A DNA stretch of 53,972 nt. It comes from an uncultured archaeon. GTDB lineage: Archaea > Iainarchaeota > Iainarchaeia > Iainarchaeales > 1-14-0-10-31-34. The DNA is taken from the NCBI GenBank assembly GCA_964442255.1, contig CAYTYC010000008.1:1-53972 (forward strand), given 5' to 3'. Under the pieces are notes generated by a model. It saw only the letters and a list, made by a program, of their open reading frames with translations. It was not told the origin of the DNA and searched no databases. A program made the position numbers and the translations under genes. Positions 33,842 through 40,805 of the stretch are shown here, one piece after another (the first letter of the stretch is position 1; every line of letters starts with the position of its first letter).

Positions 33842-34309
33842 CTAATTCAGGGCCCATATCCCGTAATTCAATGCGGAGGCAATGCTGACCCACGCCAAAT
33901 ACGGGAGCATCAAATAAGCTGCTTTTTTTGAAACCCTGTAAAAAAGAATGGTTGCTGCGAGAATTGAAATCCACAAAACAATTATTTCAGCGAACGCGAG
34001 GAAAGGGTTTCTCAGCCCAAAAAACAAAACAGACCACAACGCATTTAACCCAAGCTGCAAAAAGAAAACCCCTGCTGCGGGCTTAACCTTTTCCGTGTTC
34101 AGCCCTTTTTCCCACACAAGGTAGAGCGCCAGCCCCATCAGAGTGTACAGCGTAATCCACACCGGCGCAAAAACCCAGTTTGGAGGCGCAAAAAAAGGCT
34201 TTTGGAGTGAAGCATACCATCCGGGGATTGCGGGGGAAGTGAACACACTTCCTATCACTCCTGCAAGCTGGCAAACAAGTATTGCCGCAATTAATTTCAA
34301 TGCATTCAT
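33842..34309 (-). CDS. tspO: TspO/MBR family tryptophan-rich sensory protein
   Basis: WYASLQKPFFAPPNWVFAPVW, LNALWSVLFFG, PYLAWV. Confidence 0.95.
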   Translation of the reverse strand: MNALKLIAAILVCQLAGVIGSVFTSPAIPGWYASLQKPFFAPPNWVFAPVWITLYTLMGLALYLVWEKGLNTEKVKPAAGVFFLQLGLNALWSVLFFGLRNPFLAFAEIIVLWISILAATILFYRVSKKAAYLMLPYLAWVSIASALNYGIWALN

Positions 34310-35211
34310 TTCACTTCAACCTGCATTAAATCCTCTGCCACCGTGCTTTCAGCAAAAACTGTGCGCGCCTCGTTCTCGAATTTCTGGGAATCCTTCTGCC
34401 TTGCGCTCAAATGCGTCAAAAAAAGTTTCCCGCATTCCGCTTTTTTCGCGATTTCCGCGGCCTGTTTTGCGGTTGAATGGAAGGTCTGCTTTGCCCTTGC
34501 CCTGTGTTCCTCCAAAAAAGTGGACTCGTGCACCAATACGTCCGATTCGTGGATGAATTTAATGCAGCTGTTCAATGGAAGCGTGTCAGGCACAATTGAA
34601 ACCTTTTTGCCGATTTTTTTCTTGCCTGCATCCAAAACCATTTCCGGGGAAAAAGTTTTTCCTTTGACTTTCACTTTTTCGCCTTTCTGGAGCCTGCTGA
34701 ACAAAGGCCCCTCGGGAATGCCTAATTCCAGCGCCTTTTTCCTGTTGAATTTTCCCAGTGAATCCTTTTCCTTGAACACGTAGCCGTAACAGGGAACCTC
34801 ATGCTTTGCCTTGAAAGCGGTTACATTGAAGGTTTCCCTCTCTTCTACCAAACCTTCCTTGACCTCTTTTGCAAGAATTTCAAAGTTCACATTTAACATG
34901 CTTAACTCAAGCGCCTGCTTAACCTTTTCTTTCACTCCCTTTGGCCCGAAAACCTTTAGGGGATAGTCCCTTTGGTGCATGCTCATCGTGGCAAGCAAAC
35001 CCGGCAGCCCGAGAATGTGGTCTCCGTGAAAGTGGCTCAAAAAAATGTGCGAAATCTTCAGGTAGGATACCTTTGCGTGCATCATCTGCCTTTGGGTTCC
35101 CTCAGGGCAGTCAAACAAATAGTTGAATCCGTTGAAGTTCAGGTTCACGCTTGAAAGGTTTCTTTCCTTTGAGGGAGTGGAAGCGCCTGTCCCCAAAAAA
35201 GTCAGCTTCAT
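34306..35211 (-). CDS. rnz: Ribonuclease Z
   Basis: FLGTGAS, DCPEGTQ, SHFHGDH, exosite GIPEGPLF, HEST, HST, THLSAR. Confidence 0.96.
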   Translation of the reverse strand: MKLTFLGTGASTPSKERNLSSVNLNFNGFNYLFDCPEGTQRQMMHAKVSYLKISHIFLSHFHGDHILGLPGLLATMSMHQRDYPLKVFGPKGVKEKVKQALELSMLNVNFEILAKEVKEGLVEERETFNVTAFKAKHEVPCYGYVFKEKDSLGKFNRKKALELGIPEGPLFSRLQKGEKVKVKGKTFSPEMVLDAGKKKIGKKVSIVPDTLPLNSCIKFIHESDVLVHESTFLEEHRARAKQTFHSTAKQAAEIAKKAECGKLFLTHLSARQKDSQKFENEARTVFAESTVAEDLMQVEVK

Positions 35212-35570: not shown

Positions 35571-35629
35571 CAGACTTTCCTAACTTAAACCAAGTTCTTT
35601 TAAATACTTAATTTTATAAGCATTCTAAT

Positions 35630-36664
35630 ATGAAAGAAAATAAAAAAGCGCGGGAAAGCCTTCCTTCAGGCGAATTCGATTCAACCGCCGAATTAAAGGT
35701 GCCCAAAAAGCTGATTGACCAGGTGGTGGGGCAGGAAAAGGCCGTGGAAATAACCCGAAAAGCCGCCGCGCAAAAAAGAAACGTGCTGCTTATCTGCACT
35801 CCCGGAACGGGAAAATCAATGCTTGCGCAGGCAATGGCGGAAATCCTTCCCTTAAGCCAGTTGAATGATTTGCTTGTTTACCCGAATGAATCCGACCCCA
35901 ACAACCCAAAAGTGAGGACAGTGAAGGCGGGTGAAGGAAAAAAAATCGTCCAGCAGACCAGGACTGACGCGCAGGCACAGGAAAACAACACCCGCCTGCT
36001 CGGCTTCATCCTTCCATTGGGCTGGTTTATTTTAAGCATGGTAATCTGGCAGCTTGGCTGGATTTCCGACATCATCTACGCAGCCACACTGATTTTAGGC
36101 GGTTTTTTGGTTGTGGGGTTTGCGCTTGGCACCCAGTTCAGGAGCAAGGCCTCCGGGCAAAGCCCGAAACTTTTGGTTGACAATTCCGGGAAGAAAACCG
36201 CGCCATTCATTGAAGGCACAGGCGCAAGGGCAGGCGCATTGCTCGGGGACGTGAGGCATGACCCGCTCCAGTGCCATTCTGGCTTTAACTCGCTCCTTGT
36301 TCAGAATGGGGAAAACTTTGAGGAAAAGCCTTTTGCAGAGCTTTGGGATGAGATGCATGAAAAATACGGAAAAGAGATTATAAGAAATGAGAAAGGCTAT
36401 GAAGCAATAATGCTGCCTCCGGAGGAAAAGGTTTTCACTTTGGGTTACAAGGACGGCAAGGTTGTTGTGTCCAGAATTCTTTCACTTAACAGGCAGCCCT
36501 TTGAGGGAAAAATGGTTGACTTAAAGGTTGGCGCCAAAACAGTTTCCCTCACGCCTGAACACAAAATTGACACAGCCCAGGGAACAAAGGAAGCGGAAAA
36601 AGTCTCCGAAAAAGACGGGCTGATTAAATTAGTGAAGCATGAGATAGCCAGGATTTTTAATTGA
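35630..36664 (+). CDS. lonB: LonB protease N-terminal half (Walker A and membrane anchor) fused to a 130-aa N-intein
   Basis: LIDQVVGQE, TPGTGKSM, two TM helices, GALLGDVRHDPLQ, then intein Cys1 at 36272 and block B SLTPEHKI; ends in TGA. Confidence 0.93.
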   Translation: MKENKKARESLPSGEFDSTAELKVPKKLIDQVVGQEKAVEITRKAAAQKRNVLLICTPGTGKSMLAQAMAEILPLSQLNDLLVYPNESDPNNPKVRTVKAGEGKKIVQQTRTDAQAQENNTRLLGFILPLGWFILSMVIWQLGWISDIIYAATLILGGFLVVGFALGTQFRSKASGQSPKLLVDNSGKKTAPFIEGTGARAGALLGDVRHDPLQCHSGFNSLLVQNGENFEEKPFAELWDEMHEKYGKEIIRNEKGYEAIMLPPEEKVFTLGYKDGKVVVSRILSLNRQPFEGKMVDLKVGAKTVSLTPEHKIDTAQGTKEAEKVSEKDGLIKLVKHEIARIFN

Positions 36665-36792
36665 AACTCTCTACTTTTGGTCTCACCTGATTTTGCGCTG
36701 ATTCAGTTTCTTCATAACTTTTGGGTGCCCAGAAGCTATTTTACGAAGGACATTAATTCGGGATAATACGCCCGGTGAGGAGGAAATAAAGT

Positions 36793-36879
36793 ATAGCAAA
36801 TGACATAAATATTTAGCCAAAAAATGGTCATTTGCTATCTATCGGGTGACAATAAATGTCCAAAAACTAATGTCACCCG
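36793..36879. repeat. Two adjacent inverted repeats with similar loops
   Basis: ATAGCAAATGAC-22 nt-GTCATTTGCTAT and CGGGTGACA-19 nt-TGTCACCCG; both loops start ATAAAT and contain CCAAAAA. Confidence 0.7.
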
Positions 36880-37064
36880 CTGTATATTAAAGAACTGGCT
36901 GAATCCTGTCCGGAAGAACTGGACGGAAGGCAAATGTGGATTTTGCGGGAATTCATTGAGGAGGGATTCAAATGAATCCTTCTCTTTCTTCCTTCACAGG
37001 AAATGTGCCCCCCTCCAAAAGCGAGTTAAAAACCAAAAAACAATAGTGCAATGTGAGGGGTTGG

Positions 37065-38057
37065 GTGCTGGTCAGCGAACAAGACATACTTAACACGTAT
37101 TCAAAAAAAGAACAGCTCTCCTGCGAGAAATACGGGGAGTACAGGCTGTTGATTGAAGAGAATCCTTCTTTTGGCTATAAAAGATGTGCAAAACTTTTGG
37201 GAATTCCTCAGGGAAGAACAAGGTGGTGGCACACAAAAGGAAAGAAAAACGCGGTTCCATTGGCTTTGAAGGCGGCCAAAAAACTTGAGGGAGGAGATGT
37301 TCTCCCATTTTCTGCTGACCACAAACACTGCAAAACTGTTTTGAGACTTCTCGGAACATTGTTCGGCGATGGAGGAATTGACAGAAGGCTTAACACAATG
37401 GCTTTCATTTCCTCCATAAAGGAAGACATTGACTTATGGAAAAAAGACTTGCTTGAAGTGTTTCCCTTTATTTCAGGCAAAATGAATTTAACGGAGGGAG
37501 GCGAATACGGGCACTCGCATAACATCAGAACTTTTGATAGAAGCGTTATCCGGTTCTTTATTGCTTTGGGTGCGCCGGTTGGGGACAAAGTTGCTTCAAA
37601 CTATTCTTTACCGAAATATGTCTTTGATTTGCCCAGAAGCCACAAAATAGCTTTCTTGGATGGCTTGCTTTCTTCAGAAGTTTCAGTCCCGGTTTTTTGC
37701 GGAGACAAGCGCTGGACTTGGACAAAGCGTTTCACAAACTTTTCATTCGGATTAAGCAAAATAGATGCGTTTGAACAAGAACCCCGCGCATTTCTCAAGG
37801 CGTTTAAAAAACTCTGTGCCTCTGTTGGATTAACCTGCACGCCAAACCTCAGGAAAGAAACAGGCAAGATAACCCAACGAAAAGACGGGCACACTAGTTG
37901 TTGTTATCGGATATTCTTCCAAACGCATTTCCATAAAATATGTGAGTTTGATAAACGGTTTCCTTTAAGATACTCACACGACAAAAAGAGAAGACTCCAA
38001 AATGAGTTGAAGGGGGCGATAGAACACAAAGGCTTAAGAGAAAACATAACTATTTAA
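37065..38057 (+). CDS. Free-standing LAGLIDADG homing endonuclease of the Lon-intein type
   Basis: [13 protein letters not shown] and [13 protein letters not shown] motifs, [35 protein letters not shown] start after GAGGGG. Confidence 0.88.
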
Positions 38058-38080
38058 TCTTTTATTTAAATCATTTGAGT
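38051..38080 (+). promoter_or_regulatory. Putative promoter of the C-intein-LonC gene
   Basis: TATTTAAT (38051-38058) and TTTATTTAAA upstream of ATG 38081, similar spacing to other apparently leaderless genes here. Confidence 0.45.
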
Positions 38081-39502
38081 ATGAAGAGAAAAACTGAAAA
38101 CACCGCGGTTTCAGGCAAAACATCCAGGGAATTCAAGGGCTACGTATACAATGTAACCACGGAAACAGGCAACATTTTTGTTGAAGACGTCTTGGTTCAC
38201 AATTCAGGCGGCCTCGGCACCCCGGCGCACCTCCGTGTTGAGCCGGGAATGGTTCACCGCACAAACGGGGGGGTATTGTTTTTGGATGAAATTTCTTCCC
38301 TCACACAAAAATCCCAGCAGGAACTCTTGACTGCGATGCAGGAAAAAAAGTATTCCATCACGGGCCAAAGCGAGCTGAGCTCCGGGGCCATGACCCGCAC
38401 AGACCCGGTGCCCTGTGACTTTGTTTTGGTTGCCGCGGGAAACTACGAGGACCTGCAAAAAGTGCACCCCGCCTTGAGGAGCAGAATCCGCGGTTACGGC
38501 TACGAGGTTTACATGAACGTTGACATGCCTGACACCCCTGAAAACAGGGAAAAAATCGTGCAATTCGTTGCGCAGGAAGTCACAAAAGACAAAAAAATTC
38601 CGCACTTTTCAAAGGAAGCGGTTGAGGAAATAATTTTTGAGGCAAGGAGAAGGGCCGGCAGGAAAAACCGCCTCACACTGAAACTCCGTGACCTGGGCGG
38701 ACTGGTGCGGGCAGCCGGGGACATCGCAAAGGAAAAAGGCCACCGGCTTGTGCAGGAAGAGGACGTGTTTGAGGCCAAAATGTCCGCCCGCACCCTGGAA
38801 CAGCAGATGCTTGGAATAATTATTGACGAAAAAAAGGATTACGAGGTTTACGTAAACAAGGGCGCAATAATCGGAAGGGTAAATGGCCTGGCTGTTTCCG
38901 GGGACGGGGACGCGGGAATGGTTCTGCCGATTGAAGCCGAGGTTGCGCCGGCTCAAAGCGCCTCCGAAGGAAAGCTTATTGCAACAGGAAAACTCGGGAA
39001 AATCGCGAAGGAAGCCGTGCAAAACGTTTCCGCGCTCCTTAAAAAGCTGAGCGGAAAAGACGTTTCAAGATACGACATGCACATCCAGTTCCTTCAAACC
39101 TACCACGGCGTGGAAGGCGATTCGGCTTCAATTTCCGTTGCAGCCGCGGTGATATCTGCAATGGAAAAAATTCCTGTCAAACAGTCGCTTGCAATGACCG
39201 GCAGTTTAAGCGTAAGGGGAAAGGTCCTTCCCGTGGGCGGGGTCACCGCAAAGGTTGCGGCGGCAATAAAAGCCGGCTTTAAGGAAGTGATTGTCCCGAA
39301 GGCAAACCTCCAGGACATCATTCTTCCGCCTAAGGAACTCAAAAAAATCAACGTGATTCCTGTCGGCACGCTCACAGAGGTTTTGGAGAACGCGTTTGAA
39401 AAAACTCCGGGCAGGAGCCGGCTATTGAAAAACCTTGGAAAGCTCCTTGGATTGGAGCTTCCTTCAGTGCTGAAGAAAAAGGTTTTGAAGTCGGTTAACT
39501 GA
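38081..39502 (+). CDS. lonB: 41-aa C-intein fused to the LonB C-terminal half (Walker B and protease domain)
   Basis: Blocks [23 protein letters not shown] (Ser+1 at 38204), [23 protein letters not shown] (catalytic Ser), PVGGVTAK (catalytic Lys). Confidence 0.95.
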
Positions 39503-39563: not shown

Positions 39564-40805
39564 TCAAGTAAGCAGGACCCTGCCTTTCCTTAGCCTGAAA
39601 TTTTTTCTTGCAAGCCTCACGGTTTCCTTGGTTTTGTTGTCCCTGTATTCAATGGATTTGCCGGCCTTGCTTATGTTTTCCACTTTCCCCATCCAGGCGC
39701 CTTCCGCCGAGTAAACAGGCAAACCAACCAGGAGCCTGGTGATGCGCTTTCTCACGTCAAATACGCCGCTTATCCTGTAAGCCGCGAGCAGCACAATGAA
39801 GCTGAACAGCATGCTGAGCAAAAAGAAATTCAAGTCATACTGCCTTGTAATCACCTGTGTTCCGGAATCCAAAATAAACCAGACCAGCAGCACGCTTACC
39901 GCACTCAAAAAATATTTTCTCAAATGGAACGCCTTTTTCAGGTGCACCGCGTCAATGCTTCTCCCGATTATGAAGCTCAATGCGGTCAGCACAAAGAAAA
40001 GGAATGTCGCCTGCGCGGCCTGAACCGACCTGATCAAAAGGTCGGGCTCCATTGTTGAAACGAATTTGCTGTAGCCGGAAATCAGCCCGAAAACCAGGAT
40101 GAAAAGGCTTCCCAAATAAAACGGAAAGCTCAGCCTTTGAATGGAAATTGTGGAAGAAAGTTCCCTGAAGAGGCCCAAAAACTTTTCCTCTATCCCGAAG
40201 CCTTTAAGCAAAAGGTATGCACCGAACACAAGGGAAATGAGCTGAAAGCTCCAGGTTCCCAGCGCAAAGAACAGCAAAAGAAGTATTCCCGGAACCCCGA
40301 AAACAATCCTTGAAACAAAGGGGTCCTTTAAGGCCTCCTTGATTGTGTAATAAGTGGACTCAACCTCTTTCGCCTGCTTTACATAGATTACCTCTTTTGA
40401 AATAACCGGTTTCCTTGACTGCAGTACGGGAATTATTTGGTCGTCTTCTGCCCCGTCGCTCACCAAAACAAAGGCGTCGGCGGGAAATTTTTCCAGCACG
40501 TCATCCAATTGGCGGTTCACTTCATTGTCCGAACGGAAACCGTCTTTTCCGTATCCGGTAAGGGTGGCGACCTCCACCTGCGTGTAAATTTTGCTGATTT
40601 GGTCGAATTTTTTTACAGCGCCAAAAATCGCGTTCGCGTCGCTTTCCCCGGGGTCTGCCACGGCAAGCTTTGCTGCAGCGTTCAGGTTACTGTTTCTTCC
40701 CAACACGGGGCCCTTTGTCCCCGCTTTTCTCCCCAAATCGTTGTCCCTGTCAACGCAGACCACCAAAATGCTTTTTGTGGTGATTTTCTGCTTCTTTTCC
40801 GCCAT
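39564..40805 (-). CDS. DUF373 family membrane protein
   Basis: LVVCVDRDNDLG, DPGESDAN, VSDGAEDD, KQAKEVESTYY. Confidence 0.9.
   Translation of the reverse strand: MAEKKQKITTKSILVVCVDRDNDLGRKAGTKGPVLGRNSNLNAAAKLAVADPGESDANAIFGAVKKFDQISKIYTQVEVATLTGYGKDGFRSDNEVNRQLDDVLEKFPADAFVLVSDGAEDDQIIPVLQSRKPVISKEVIYVKQAKEVESTYYTIKEALKDPFVSRIVFGVPGILLLLFFALGTWSFQLISLVFGAYLLLKGFGIEEKFLGLFRELSSTISIQRLSFPFYLGSLFILVFGLISGYSKFVSTMEPDLLIRSVQAAQATFLFFVLTALSFIIGRSIDAVHLKKAFHLRKYFLSAVSVLLVWFILDSGTQVITRQYDLNFFLLSMLFSFIVLLAAYRISGVFDVRKRITRLLVGLPVYSAEGAWMGKVENISKAGKSIEYRDNKTKETVRLARKNFRLRKGRVLLT

What the first reader, a model, noticed from the sequence alone, without database searches (positions are those of the whole stretch)
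35630..39502. LonB protease encoded as two genes joined by an apparently naturally split intein
Seen: ORF 35630-36664 is LonB up to ...GDVRHDPLQ, then Cys1 (36272), a block B TPEH motif and a stop after 130 intein residues. ORF 38081-39502 starts with its own ATG and 41 residues ending [20 protein letters not shown], followed by SGGLGTPAH and the rest of LonB. Joining the exteins restores [13 protein letters not shown]. Splicing residues (C1, block B T/H, penultimate H, terminal N, S+1), Walker A lysine, Walker B and the Ser-Lys dyad are all present. Known: this is the site used by contiguous Thermococcales Lon inteins; natural split inteins are known in cyanobacterial DnaE, Nanoarchaeum equitans Pol and phage 'fractured genes'. 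Inference: mature Lon is made by protein trans-splicing of a membrane-anchored half to a soluble half. I do not know of a described split Lon intein but cannot search to confirm this. It could also be a new trans-splicing tool.
Basis: partly seen in the sequence, partly recalled or inferred. Interest (0 to 1): 0.92.

Follow-up and report, generated by a model that had tools for sequence, protein, structure and literature searches.

The report
Naturally split intein in archaeal LonB
In this small DPANN archaeon the only gene for the membrane protease LonB is broken into two separately expressed genes by a split intein with its homing endonuclease as a third gene in between, so the protease is most likely stitched together after translation, as in dozens of related species.

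Summary
ORF1 (35630-36664) is LonB residues 1-214 plus a 130-residue N-intein. ORF3 (38081-39502) is a 41-residue C-intein plus the rest of LonB. Between them lies an intact free-standing LAGLIDADG endonuclease gene (37053-38057) in another frame.

It is not an assembly error or a pseudogene:
- It is the genome's only LonB.
- The same layout occurs in 49 of 196 genomes of the same order (Iainarchaeota/Diapherotrites) and in Micrarchaeota.
- The gap varies from 0.3 to 4.3 kb and sometimes holds unrelated genes. In some genomes the halves are unlinked; in one the C-half lies 28.5 kb upstream of the N-half.
- Residue 1 (Cys or Ser), TPEH, the terminal Asn and Ser+1 are conserved.
- IntN, IntC and the endonuclease are under purifying selection.
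- 31 of 36 C-half genes have their own archaeal TATA-type box 21-27 nt before the ATG.
- A complex model scored 0.80, against 0.01 for the best control.

The best reading is protein trans-splicing, which has not been shown directly. My nine literature searches found no description of it. The nearest known case is the 'fractured genes' of Dassa et al. 2009. This scan has noted the same family before on other DNA.

The parts
35598..35604 (+). TATA-like box (TTTTAAA) ending 26 nt before the ATG of the N-half gene
   Evidence: Similar boxes at this distance occur upstream of 21 of 34 N-half genes.
35630..36271 (+). N-extein: LonB residues 1-214. Holds Walker A (PGTGKS, 35801-35818) and two hydrophobic segments (aa 121-170, about 35990-36139).
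   Evidence: TIGR00764 positions 3-200, E 2.4e-61; hydropathy and motifs.
36272..36664 (+). IntN: 130 residues from Cys1 (36272), block B TPEH (36551-36562), then stop codon 36662-36664
   Evidence: Profile A1 hits solved inteins (best 2jmz, E 3.1e-07). In 37 relatives IntN is 122-138 aa and always followed by a stop.
36665..37052 (.). Spacer between IntN and the endonuclease gene. Holds an unexplained 89-aa ORF (36824-37093) with no family match.
37053..38057 (+). Free-standing LAGLIDADG homing endonuclease gene, 334 aa. GTG start at 37053 or 37065, in a different frame from ORF1 and ORF3. Motifs LFGDGG (37359-37376) and FLDGLLSSE (37653-37679).
   Evidence: NCBIfam hits only the intein part of RtcB_rel_intein (6.2e-17). 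AF2 model pLDDT 89.9. Foldseek hits I-Tsp061I (1.4e-07), I-DmoI, PI-SceI and PI-PfuI. 24 intact homologues at 51-70% identity. No paralogue in the genome.
38051..38057 (+). TATA-like box (TATTTAA, within AACTATTTAAT) ending 24 nt before the ATG of the C-half gene. It overlaps the endonuclease stop codon.
   Evidence: The same box ends 21-27 nt before the ATG in 31 of 36 C-half genes, against 1.3% of random positions.
38081..38203 (+). IntC: 41 residues with their own ATG, blocks F/G (YNVTTETGN ... VLVHN), terminal Asn
   Evidence: Asn is invariant in 36 of 36; penultimate His in 28 of 36.
38204..39502 (+). C-extein: starts with Ser+1 (SGGLGTPAH). Holds Walker B (38270-38290), the AAA lid and the Lon protease domain with GDSAS (39116-39130) and GGVTAK (39236-39253). 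Stop at 39500-39502.
   Evidence: TIGR00764 positions 193-606, E 1e-194; Pfam Lon_C and LonB_AAA-LID; motifs.

Best explanation
The window holds a 'fractured' lonB gene. A mobile intein at the DPLQ|SGG site of the AAA+ module has come apart into three genes:
1. N-extein plus IntN.
2. A free-standing LAGLIDADG homing endonuclease, which is the intein's former endonuclease domain.
3. IntC plus C-extein.

Each LonB half is transcribed from its own archaeal TATA-type promoter and translated separately. The membrane-anchored N-half carries Walker A, a two-helix membrane hairpin and IntN. The soluble C-half carries IntC, Walker B, the lid and the protease domain. IntN and IntC pair into a HINT fold.

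Splicing then follows the standard route. Cys1 attacks the preceding peptide bond. The N-extein is passed to Ser+1. The terminal Asn cyclises. The two halves end up joined by a normal peptide bond as full-length LonB (...HDPLQSGGLGTP...).

The endonuclease most likely cuts intein-free lonB alleles and so spreads the whole cassette.

Shown here: the gene anatomy, its conservation, selection on it, the promoter boxes and the endonuclease fold. Inferred: transcription, association of the halves in the cell, the splicing chemistry and homing.
For: **Single copy.** G000 (93.8% complete) has one LonB above the family cut-off: 864 bits, but only when read through the stops. The other three matches cover only the protease domain at 39-47 bits.

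**Recurrence in the order (196 genomes).**
- 40 genomes have an N-half ending in IntN in an open frame of 290-440 aa. G171 and G002 have the same plus a further intein upstream. G005 has fragments.
- 42 genomes have an IntC-led C-half.
- 49 genomes show one or the other; 37 show both.
- Most of the rest are intein-free. 6-7 carry a contiguous intein at the same site.

**The gap is not one frame.** In 29 loci with both halves on one contig, the gap is 287-4331 nt (median 2072).
- 20 hold an intact endonuclease gene, 2 a broken one, 1 a remnant and 6 none.
- G109's gap holds only a 477-aa open frame on the other strand.
- G024's halves sit on different contigs among unrelated genes.

**Micrarchaeota.** In 5 of 5 genomes examined the halves are apart. 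In G197 the C-half lies 28.5 kb upstream of the N-half. In G196 the N-half sits mid-way along a 437-kb contig and the C-half is on another contig.

**Splicing residues.**
- Residue 1 is Cys in 18 and Ser in 19 of 37.
- T and H of TPEH are invariant in 37 of 37.
- The terminal Asn is present in 36 of 36, and Ser+1 in 36 of 36.

**Selection.**
- For G101/G102, dN/dS is 0.08 for IntN, 0.23 for IntC and 0.08 for the endonuclease.
- For G087/G089, it is 0.14 for IntN and 0.15 for IntC.
- For the window against its nearest relatives, it is 0.11-0.13 for IntN where dS is not saturated.

**Promoter.** A box with consensus AACCTATTTAAT ends 21-27 nt before the ATG in 31 of 36 C-half genes. The rate is 1.3% at random positions and 1.6% at other ATGs. 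At two other offsets in the same upstream regions it is 0 of 36 and 1 of 36.

**Collinearity.** In the contiguous intein of G007 the IntN, endonuclease and C-extein matches lie in one frame in this order, 6 codons apart at the IntN-endonuclease boundary.

**Complex model of IntN with IntC.**
- Score 0.80; best of 3 controls 0.01.
- The mark was reached by 116 of 157 solved complexes and 2 of 215 mismatched pairs.
- Runs agree in at least 92% of contacts. Partner pLDDT is at least 78.
- My own alignments were used, so the counts hold only roughly.

**Synteny.** The same metallo-beta-lactamase-type gene (RNase Z-like by recall) lies upstream and the same membrane-protein gene downstream, as at intein-free lonB loci.
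Against: - There is no direct evidence of transcripts, of the two polypeptides or of the spliced product. No RNA run holds the stretch.
- The only independent sample's contigs do not cover the two stop codons.
- Intein family models barely see IntN. TIGR01445 scores 17.3 bits against a cut-off of 24.5. PF14890 did not report it in the genome scan.
- The penultimate residue is not His in 8 of 36 relatives (Ser, Cys or Lys).
- The endonuclease in the window starts with GTG, not ATG.
- Synonymous sites are saturated for most pairs, so dN/dS rests on a few close pairs.
- Split-intein complexes have been solved, so the complex score may reflect likeness to a known fold. The nearest solved intein is only E 3e-07 by profile.
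Confidence: 0.85

Rival explanations
1. The intein halves serve only as a non-covalent docking module. The two LonB pieces associate through IntN and IntC and work as a two-chain enzyme without peptide-bond formation.
For: A precedent exists by title and abstract only: a fragmented phage ribonucleotide reductase assembled by interaction domains derived from a mobile element (PMC3045599, seen in the listing). The penultimate His is replaced in 8 of 36 relatives. The complex model speaks only to binding, not to chemistry.
Against: The residues needed only for chemistry are kept. Residue 1 is Cys or Ser in 37 of 37. T and H of block B are invariant in 37 of 37. The terminal Asn is present in 36 of 36 and Ser+1 in 36 of 36. 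The break lies inside the AAA+ module, between the membrane hairpin and Walker B. A 171-residue intein left there would sit within the ATPase ring; that is my inference.
Confidence: 0.06
2. The locus is a decaying pseudogene. A contiguous intein-bearing lonB was inactivated by stops and frameshifts, and LonB function is lost or taken over by another protease.
For: DPANN genomes are reduced. The genome is 93.8% complete, so another copy could be missing. Some relatives have broken endonuclease genes: G087, G136 and G016.
Against: Both LonB halves and both intein halves are intact and under purifying selection. The same stop/start layout is kept in 49 of 196 genomes of the order and in a second phylum. 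The C-half has a conserved promoter box and ATG. Random decay would not stop at the two domain boundaries in every lineage.
Confidence: 0.04
3. The locus is an assembly or sequencing artefact of a contiguous 644-residue intein.
For: The window comes from a metagenome assembly at modest depth (8.5 in the likely source run). The second sample does not cover the stops.
Against: The middle ORF is in another frame. It is separated from IntN by 388 nt that holds stops in the frame of ORF1 and ORF3. 26 stops are counted when the locus is read through. Dozens of independent assemblies show the same breaks, with gaps that differ in length and content.
Confidence: 0.02
4. The intervening DNA is removed or skipped at the RNA level or during translation, by an intron or by ribosomal bypass.
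For: None was found. Dassa et al. raise translational bypass as a formal alternative for fractured genes (PMC2677866, passage read).
Against: The gap is 0.3-4.3 kb. It encodes a selected protein, sometimes holds genes on the other strand, and in some genomes spans tens of kilobases or separate contigs. Intein blocks flank the break exactly.
Confidence: 0.01

Closest known systems
'Fractured genes' of marine metagenomes (Dassa, London, Stoddard, Schueler-Furman, Pietrokovski 2009, PMC2677866; abstract and passages read)
   Same: A conserved enzyme gene is broken in two at an intein, with both halves kept in the original order and orientation. IntN ends the first gene and IntC starts the second. 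[quoted passage not shown]
   Different: [quoted passage not shown] Here the host is a membrane protease.
- Their endonucleases are GIY-YIG or Vsr-like, and the text has no occurrence of 'LAGLIDADG'. Here the endonuclease is a LAGLIDADG enzyme collinear with the endonuclease domain of contiguous inteins at the same site. That suggests fission in place, not invasion by a foreign endonuclease gene.
- The host here is a cellular DPANN archaeon.
- Relatives show every stage from contiguous to fully dispersed.
[quoted passage not shown]
   Same: A canonical split between blocks B and F, with an N part of about 100-130 aa and a C part of about 35-40 aa. The host gene is single-copy. The halves can be far apart in the genome, as in the Micrarchaeota relatives.
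   Different: The host protein and the domain of life differ. The DnaE halves have no endonuclease gene between them. There is no clear opposite net charge here: the median is +1 for both halves, and the window has IntN -2 and IntC +1.
Nanoarchaeum equitans PolB split intein (Neq Pol; recalled, not read here)
   Same: A natural split intein in a DPANN archaeon, with halves on separate genes.
   Different: It is a single species and a DNA polymerase, with no endonuclease gene. The LonB family spans at least two phyla and dozens of species.
Contiguous LonB inteins (10 listed for Euryarchaeota in Novikova et al. 2016, PMC4760082, table passage read; contiguous inteins at DPLQ|SGG in G023, G007, G039, G046, G071 and G129)
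   Same: Same host protein. For the genomes of this order, the same insertion site and a LAGLIDADG domain. G007 and G039 match the window at 31-32% identity in the endonuclease part and 35-38% in IntN.
   Different: They are one open frame of 1066-1158 aa that splices in cis. Whether the Thermococcales inteins use this exact site was not tested.

Membership tests
Intein (HINT protein-splicing element) | Cys/Ser/Thr nucleophile as first residue, directly after the N-extein | tested here: met
   Cys at 36272. Residue 1 is Cys in 18 and Ser in 19 of 37 relatives.
Intein (HINT protein-splicing element) | Block B TxxH | tested here: met
   TPEH at 36551-36562. T and H are invariant in 37 of 37.
Intein (HINT protein-splicing element) | C-terminal Asn (usually His-Asn) followed by a Ser/Thr/Cys +1 | tested here: met
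   VHN|S in the window. Asn in 36 of 36, Ser+1 in 36 of 36, penultimate His in 28 of 36.
Intein (HINT protein-splicing element) | Insert absent from orthologues, and the exteins join to the uninterrupted host sequence | tested here: met
   Intein-free orthologues read DPLQSGGLGTP. TIGR00764 is matched over 3-200 and 193-606.
Intein (HINT protein-splicing element) | Match to curated intein models or solved inteins | tested here: inconclusive
   TIGR01445 scores 17.3 bits against a cut-off of 24.5. PF14890 did not report it. Profile A1 hits the solved intein 2jmz at E 3.1e-07 and others more weakly.
Intein (HINT protein-splicing element) | Splicing activity | not testable with these tools
   Needs expression and mass spectrometry.
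Naturally split (trans-splicing) intein | IntN ends in a stop, and IntC has its own start on a separate gene | tested here: met
   Stop at 36662 and ATG at 38081. The same holds in 37 N-halves and 36 C-halves.
Naturally split (trans-splicing) intein | Independent expression signals for the second half | tested here: met
   A TATA-type box ends 21-27 nt before the ATG in 31 of 36 C-half genes, against 1.3-1.6% in controls. Transcripts were not observed.
Naturally split (trans-splicing) intein | Both halves kept under purifying selection across species | tested here: met
   dN/dS is 0.08-0.33 for IntN and 0.15-0.23 for IntC in the closest pairs.
Naturally split (trans-splicing) intein | The arrangement works when the halves are unlinked | tested here: met
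   This holds in relatives, not in the window. G024's halves are on different contigs among unrelated genes. In G197 they are 28.5 kb apart in reversed order, and in G196 on different contigs.
Naturally split (trans-splicing) intein | The two halves bind each other | tested here: met
   This is a model only. Score 0.80 against 0.01 for the best of 3 controls. The mark was reached by 116 of 157 solved complexes and 2 of 215 mismatched pairs. Contacts agree in at least 92% and partner pLDDT is at least 78. The result may reflect likeness to solved split inteins.
Fractured gene (Dassa et al. 2009) | [quoted passage not shown] | tested here: met
Fractured gene (Dassa et al. 2009) | Endonuclease of the GIY-YIG or Vsr-like type, as in all described examples | tested here: not met
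   The fold is LAGLIDADG. I treat this as a difference and not as a defining feature.
LAGLIDADG homing endonuclease | Two LAGLIDADG-type motifs with conserved acidic residues | tested here: met
   LFGDGG and [10 protein letters not shown]105, D106, G107, F201, G204 and E209 are invariant in 25 sequences. Assignment of the catalytic residues is by recalled comparison with PI-SceI.
LAGLIDADG homing endonuclease | LAGLIDADG fold | tested here: met
   AF2 model pLDDT 89.9, pTM 0.89. Foldseek hits I-Tsp061I (E 1.4e-07, TMt 0.65), E-DreI, I-DmoI, PI-SceI and PI-PfuI.
LAGLIDADG homing endonuclease | Match to curated sequence models | tested here: not met
   No Pfam family at E up to 0.1. No PDB sequence at E up to 1. 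Only the intein part of an NCBIfam RtcB model matches.
LAGLIDADG homing endonuclease | Cleaves the intein-free allele | not testable with these tools
   Needs a cleavage assay.
Archaeal LonB protease | TIGR00764 over its cut-off; Walker A and B; membrane insertion within the AAA+ module; Ser-Lys protease domain | tested here: met
   864 bits against a cut-off of 516.6, but only across both ORFs. Motifs and hydropathy.

The most novel reading that the evidence does not exclude
The window holds one member of a large, undescribed and still mobile family of natural split inteins. The family arose when a LAGLIDADG intein in LonB came apart in place. It shows every stage side by side in living lineages: contiguous; fractured with the endonuclease as its own gene; fractured with cargo genes or no endonuclease; fully dispersed halves; and three-piece LonB that needs two different split inteins acting in tandem. 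About half of the members use Ser1 and Ser+1, and several of those have no cysteine at all.
Probability: 0.75. Interest if true: 0.8.

Novelty: new variant of a known kind. Interest (0 to 1): 0.72.

Why it matters
Natural split inteins are few, and they are the basis of protein trans-splicing tools. By my recall and the papers read, the known cellular ones are the cyanobacterial DnaE group and the Nanoarchaeum polymerase. The 'fractured genes' come from marine metagenome reads and are all DNA-metabolism enzymes.

This case adds several things:
- **A new host.** It would add a family in a membrane-bound quality-control protease of archaea, present in about a quarter of the species of one order and in a second phylum.
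- **A route to splitting.** It shows how a mobile intein can become split: its own endonuclease domain turns into a separate gene, and then the halves drift apart.
- **Dependence on trans-splicing.** The organism's only LonB would depend on it.
- **Tool-building material.** The family offers many diverged pairs. About half use Ser1/Ser+1 chemistry, and several of those have no cysteine in either half. The listings for PMC11923092 and PMC12707363 (title and abstract start only) describe cysteine-less split inteins as rare and sought after. Relatives with three-piece LonB carry two pairs that must not cross-react.

Tried and rejected
**Reads.** No RNA holder is listed for the stretch. Of two DNA runs laid, one is probably the source. 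The other covers only pieces, and none crosses the stops. Reads therefore add almost nothing.

**Searches that found little.**
- A longer-protein search with IntN found only 2 proteins, both N-halves with an extra upstream intein.
- A paper search for 'Pho Lon', 'Pab Lon', 'Lon intein' and 'Tko Lon' gave nothing on the insertion site.
- Pfam gave no family for the middle ORF or for the 89-aa ORF 36824-37093. A PDB sequence search with the endonuclease profile gave nothing. The fold search settled the endonuclease.

**Analyses that failed or misled.**
- My first promoter pattern was badly written and matched only 11 of 36 C-half genes. I replaced it with a list of TATA-type heptamers and octamers and ran the controls on that list.
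- The idea of opposite net charges on IntN and IntC, as in DnaE inteins, was not borne out. Medians are +1 and +1.
- Most 'halves on different contigs' cases in the order turned out to be contig ends just after the N-half (G084, G119, G106, G181). I do not count them as unlinked.

**Literature.** Nine searches found no description of a split Lon intein. The one 'intein' mention in a Micrarchaeota paper (PMC5498576, passage read) is a subsystem name and is unrelated.

**Database names.** Public databases call the N-halves 'ATP-binding protein', 'Lon-like ATP-dependent protease' or 'hypothetical protein'.

Full report
**The observation**

The window has three same-strand ORFs at the stated place.

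- ORF1 (35630-36664, 344 aa) matches NCBIfam LonB TIGR00764 over model positions 3-200 (E 2.4e-61). It carries Walker A PGTGKS at 35801-35818 and two hydrophobic segments, aa 121-139 and 148-170.
- After ...GDVRHDPLQ comes Cys at 36272. There are then 130 residues with TPEH at 36551-36562, and a stop at 36662.
- ORF3 starts at ATG 38081. Its first 41 residues end ...[19 protein letters not shown]. Then follows SGGLGTPAH and LonB model positions 193-606 (E 1e-194), with Walker B, the LonB lid and the Lon_C protease domain.
- Intein-free orthologues read DPLQSGGLGTP without a break.

**The middle ORF**

ORF2 (37053-38057, 334 aa, GTG start) is in a different frame.

- It has no Pfam family. It matches the intein portion of an NCBIfam intein-containing RtcB model (6.2e-17).
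- With an alignment of 25 homologues, AlphaFold2 gives pLDDT 89.9 and pTM 0.89.
- Foldseek finds LAGLIDADG homing endonucleases: I-Tsp061I at E 1.4e-07, then E-DreI, the TliVMA intein endonuclease, I-DmoI, PI-SceI and PI-PfuI.
- The motifs LFGDGG and FLDGLLSSE have invariant acidic residues.

So the locus is N-extein+IntN, then a free-standing LAGLIDADG gene, then IntC+C-extein.

**Not an artefact or a pseudogene**

The genome (93.8% complete, 0.23% contaminated) has a single LonB. It passes the family cut-off only when both ORFs are read through 26 stops (864 bits). The other three hits cover only a protease domain, at 39-47 bits.

*Census of the order (196 genomes, G000 included).* Record titles name these genomes Candidatus Iainarchaeum or Diapherotrites.

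- With ORF1 as query, 186 of 196 genomes matched, and 150 rows were listed with 48 left unlisted.
  - 40 genomes have an N-half that runs into IntN in an open frame of 290-440 aa.
  - G171 and G002 have the same behind an extra intein. G005 has fragments.
  - 6 genomes hold the match inside a frame of 1066-1158 aa, which means a contiguous intein.
- With the first 100 residues of ORF3 as query, 184 of 196 matched, and 150 rows were listed with 41 left unlisted.
  - 42 genomes have an IntC-led frame of 186-665 aa.
  - 7 have a contiguous frame.
  - The other listed rows start at query residue 34-41, so they have no intein.
- With G019, whose IntN end I found in a fetched locus, 49 of 196 genomes show at least one half and 37 show both.
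- Unlisted rows rank below the intein-bearing ones, but I did not see them.

*Fetched loci.*

- IntN is 122-138 aa and is always followed by a stop. Its tail is conserved (..D.LIKLVK.E.AK.F). IntC is 38-48 aa with its own ATG.
- G139 and G136 have no ATG in the expected range, so I left them out of the IntC set.

*The gap.* In 29 loci with both halves on one contig the gap is 287-4331 nt, median 2072.

- 22 hold an endonuclease homologue. 2 of these are broken: G087 by a frameshift and G136 by an internal stop.
- G016 keeps a 60-aa remnant. 6 have none: G002, G124, G139, G188, G109 and G047.
- G047's gap is only 287 nt. G109's gap holds only a 477-aa open frame on the opposite strand.
- G019 has an unrelated 552-aa ORF between the end of IntN and IntC.
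- G024's N-half is followed by 2.4 kb of unrelated genes to the contig end. Its C-half, on another contig, is preceded by 3.4 kb of unrelated genes.
- Several other 'different contig' cases are only contig ends just after the N-half, and I do not count them as unlinked.

**A second phylum with dispersed halves**

- Among the 80 loci returned by the search for related loci, 14 Iainarchaeota-type and 16 Micrarchaeota-type N-halves stop 114-163 residues after the junction.
- I examined 5 of the 16 Micrarchaeota genomes, choosing mainly those on long contigs. All 5 have an IntC-led C-half of 457-480 aa elsewhere in the genome.
  - In G197 it lies on the same 99.6-kb contig, 28.5 kb upstream of the N-half.
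  - In G196 the N-half sits at 242 kb of a 437-kb contig, and the C-half is on another contig.
  - In G198, G199 and G200 the halves are on different contigs. G200 keeps the endonuclease gene beside the N-half.

**Wider databases**

- A profile of IntN run against 1.84 billion cluster representatives gave 36 proteins at E up to 1e-10. In roughly 20 of them, by my reading of the table, the match ends at the protein's C-terminus.
- The word-indexed search found 34 clusters of 209-367 aa. Their sources call them 'ATP-binding protein', 'Lon-like ATP-dependent protease' or 'hypothetical protein', never intein.

**Is the splicing machinery kept?**

- Residue 1 is Cys (18) or Ser (19) in 37 N-halves. 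T and H of TPEH are invariant.
- The terminal Asn and Ser+1 are invariant in 36 C-halves. The penultimate residue is His in 28, Ser in 5, Cys in 2 and Lys in 1.
- Nei-Gojobori dN/dS was computed over pairs with dS between 0.1 and 2. Most pairs are saturated, and median pS is about 0.78.

| Part | Median dN/dS | Pairs |
|---|---|---|
| N-extein | 0.20 | 115 |
| IntN | 0.31 | 182 |
| Endonuclease | 0.24 | 37 |
| IntC | 0.22 | 161 |
| First 72 C-extein residues | 0.08 | 151 |

- The closest pairs give 0.08 (IntN), 0.23 (IntC) and 0.08 (endonuclease) for G101/G102. They give 0.14 and 0.15 for G087/G089.
- For the window against its nearest relatives, IntN gives 0.11-0.13 where it can be estimated.
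- The IntN profile finds solved inteins only weakly. The best is 2jmz at E 3.1e-07, so this family has no close solved relative.

**Complex model of IntN with IntC**

- The chains were IntN plus 6 extein residues and IntC plus 6 extein residues, with my own alignments.
- The score was 0.80 and the best of 3 controls 0.01.
- The mark was reached by 116 of 157 solved complexes and 2 of 215 mismatched pairs.
- Runs agree in at least 92% of contacts, and partner pLDDT is at least 78.
- Split-intein complexes are solved, so this pass may reflect likeness to them. It supports binding but does not show it.

**Separate expression**

- Upstream of the C-half ATG there is a box with consensus AACCTATTTAAT.
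- Its last base lies 21-27 nt before the ATG in 31 of 36 genes. In the window it is TATTTAA at 38051-38057, ending at -24 and overlapping the endonuclease stop codon.
- The control rates are 1.3% at random positions, 1.6% at other ATG triplets, and 0 of 36 and 1 of 36 at two other offsets in the same upstream regions.
- The five misses have similar boxes a little further upstream.
- Similar boxes precede the N-half genes at the same distance (21 of 34).
- By established knowledge of archaeal BRE/TATA promoters, this spacing fits leaderless or short-leader transcripts. No transcript was observed.

**Origin and mobility**

- In the contiguous intein of G007, the matches to the window's N-extein, IntN, endonuclease and C-extein lie in one frame in that order. 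Only 6 codons separate the IntN and endonuclease matches.
- The stop after IntN and the endonuclease start therefore sit at a domain boundary of a contiguous relative. This suggests that an intein came apart in place, and not that a foreign endonuclease gene invaded a mini-intein as Dassa et al. proposed for their loci.
- Quick maximum-likelihood trees of 33 genomes need 16 changes of taxonomic family label on the extein tree (minimum 15) and 19 on the intein tree.
- The intein tree has two starred clades, one roughly of Cys1 'HYGFN' type and one of Ser1 'FIDE' type. Families f1, f4, f20, f23 and f24 each have members in both. The window (f1) and G002 (f1) fall in different clades.
- In G139, G147 and G154, IntN dS is 0.05-0.15 while N-extein dS is 0.8-1.0.
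- Split and intein-free alleles occur in the same genera, for example g61, g54, g50 and g33.
- Together these observations fit continuing horizontal spread. Old polymorphism is not excluded, and the trees are unrooted quick trees of short alignments.

**Comparison with what is known**

- The closest described system is the 'fractured gene' (PMC2677866; abstract and passages read). [quoted passage not shown] The text has no 'LAGLIDADG' and no Lon.
- Nine full-text searches found no split Lon intein. Subscription journals and supplements are not covered.
- This scan had already noted the same family on other genomes. I saw those notes after my own analysis, and they agree with it.

**Verdict**

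It is a naturally split, probably still mobile intein that makes the cell's only LonB depend on protein trans-splicing. It is a new variant of a known kind: a fractured gene in a new host protein, in archaea, with a LAGLIDADG endonuclease derived from the intein itself. Relatives show every stage up to dispersed halves and three-piece genes. The splicing reaction itself remains inferred.

Noticed in passing
L022 (G016), L023 (G033), L024 (G002), L032 (G122), L038 (G048), L055 (G181), L057 (G171): LonB is in three pieces. The middle ORF (622-665 aa) is IntC(a), a 70-aa extein (SGGLG...AVP) and a second intein's N part, which is still fused to its LAGLIDADG domain (507-516 aa after Cys1). In 7 of 7 loci its stop overlaps or abuts the ATG of a third ORF; for L055 I read the overlapping ATG from the printed DNA, since the script chose one 22 nt further on. 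The third ORF is IntC(b), about 40 aa, followed by CDFVLVAAG... By open-frame size, 8 of 196 genomes show this. It implies two split inteins acting in tandem.
   Followed up: partly
L025 (G007) and L026 (G039): The contiguous inteins at the same site appear to start with Thr (DPLQ|TIFPN..., DPLQ|TFFPD...) and end ...ISN|SGG and ...AAN|SGG. Both the first residue and the penultimate residue are unusual.
   Followed up: no
L024 (G002), L056 (G171), L064 (G047): LonB has further intein sites. G002 and G171 have a contiguous intein inside Walker A (GTGK|C...HN|S). G047 has another intein soon after the C-extein start (HLRVE|C...).
   Followed up: no
L039, L065, L066 (G139, G147, G154): IntN is nearly identical between these species (dS 0.05-0.15), while the adjoining N-extein has dS 0.8-1.0. 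This looks like recent transfer or gene conversion of the intein part.
   Followed up: partly
L016 3069-3794 (G018) and L024 3746-4522 (G002): A conserved 242-259-aa ORF of unknown function (...FLFTHEW.AKL.L..LKKK..ISNY.NIDDYFFGAIAPDIRYI...) lies in the gap between the LonB halves in two families. It is a passenger gene of the cassette.
   Followed up: no
window 36824-37093: An 89-aa ORF with several Cys pairs lies in the spacer between IntN and the endonuclease gene. It has no Pfam match and may be spurious.
   Followed up: no
G000 contigs C32, C1, C23, C9, C13, C7 (outside the window): The genome has at least five other ORFs of 757-1348 aa that match the Pfam intein splicing domain. So it carries several contiguous inteins besides the split one.
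   Followed up: no
window 34306-35211 (-) and 39564-40805 (-): The flanking genes are a metallo-beta-lactamase-type protein (RNase Z-like by recalled motif HFHGDH) and a 413-aa membrane protein. The same neighbours occur at intein-free, contiguous and fractured lonB loci of relatives, so the fractured gene sits in the ancestral locus.
   Followed up: partly
G129 contigs C43 and C44: One assembly holds both a fractured lonB, on a 3.4-kb contig, and a contiguous-intein lonB. This is either a strain mixture or contamination (3% by the table).
   Followed up: no
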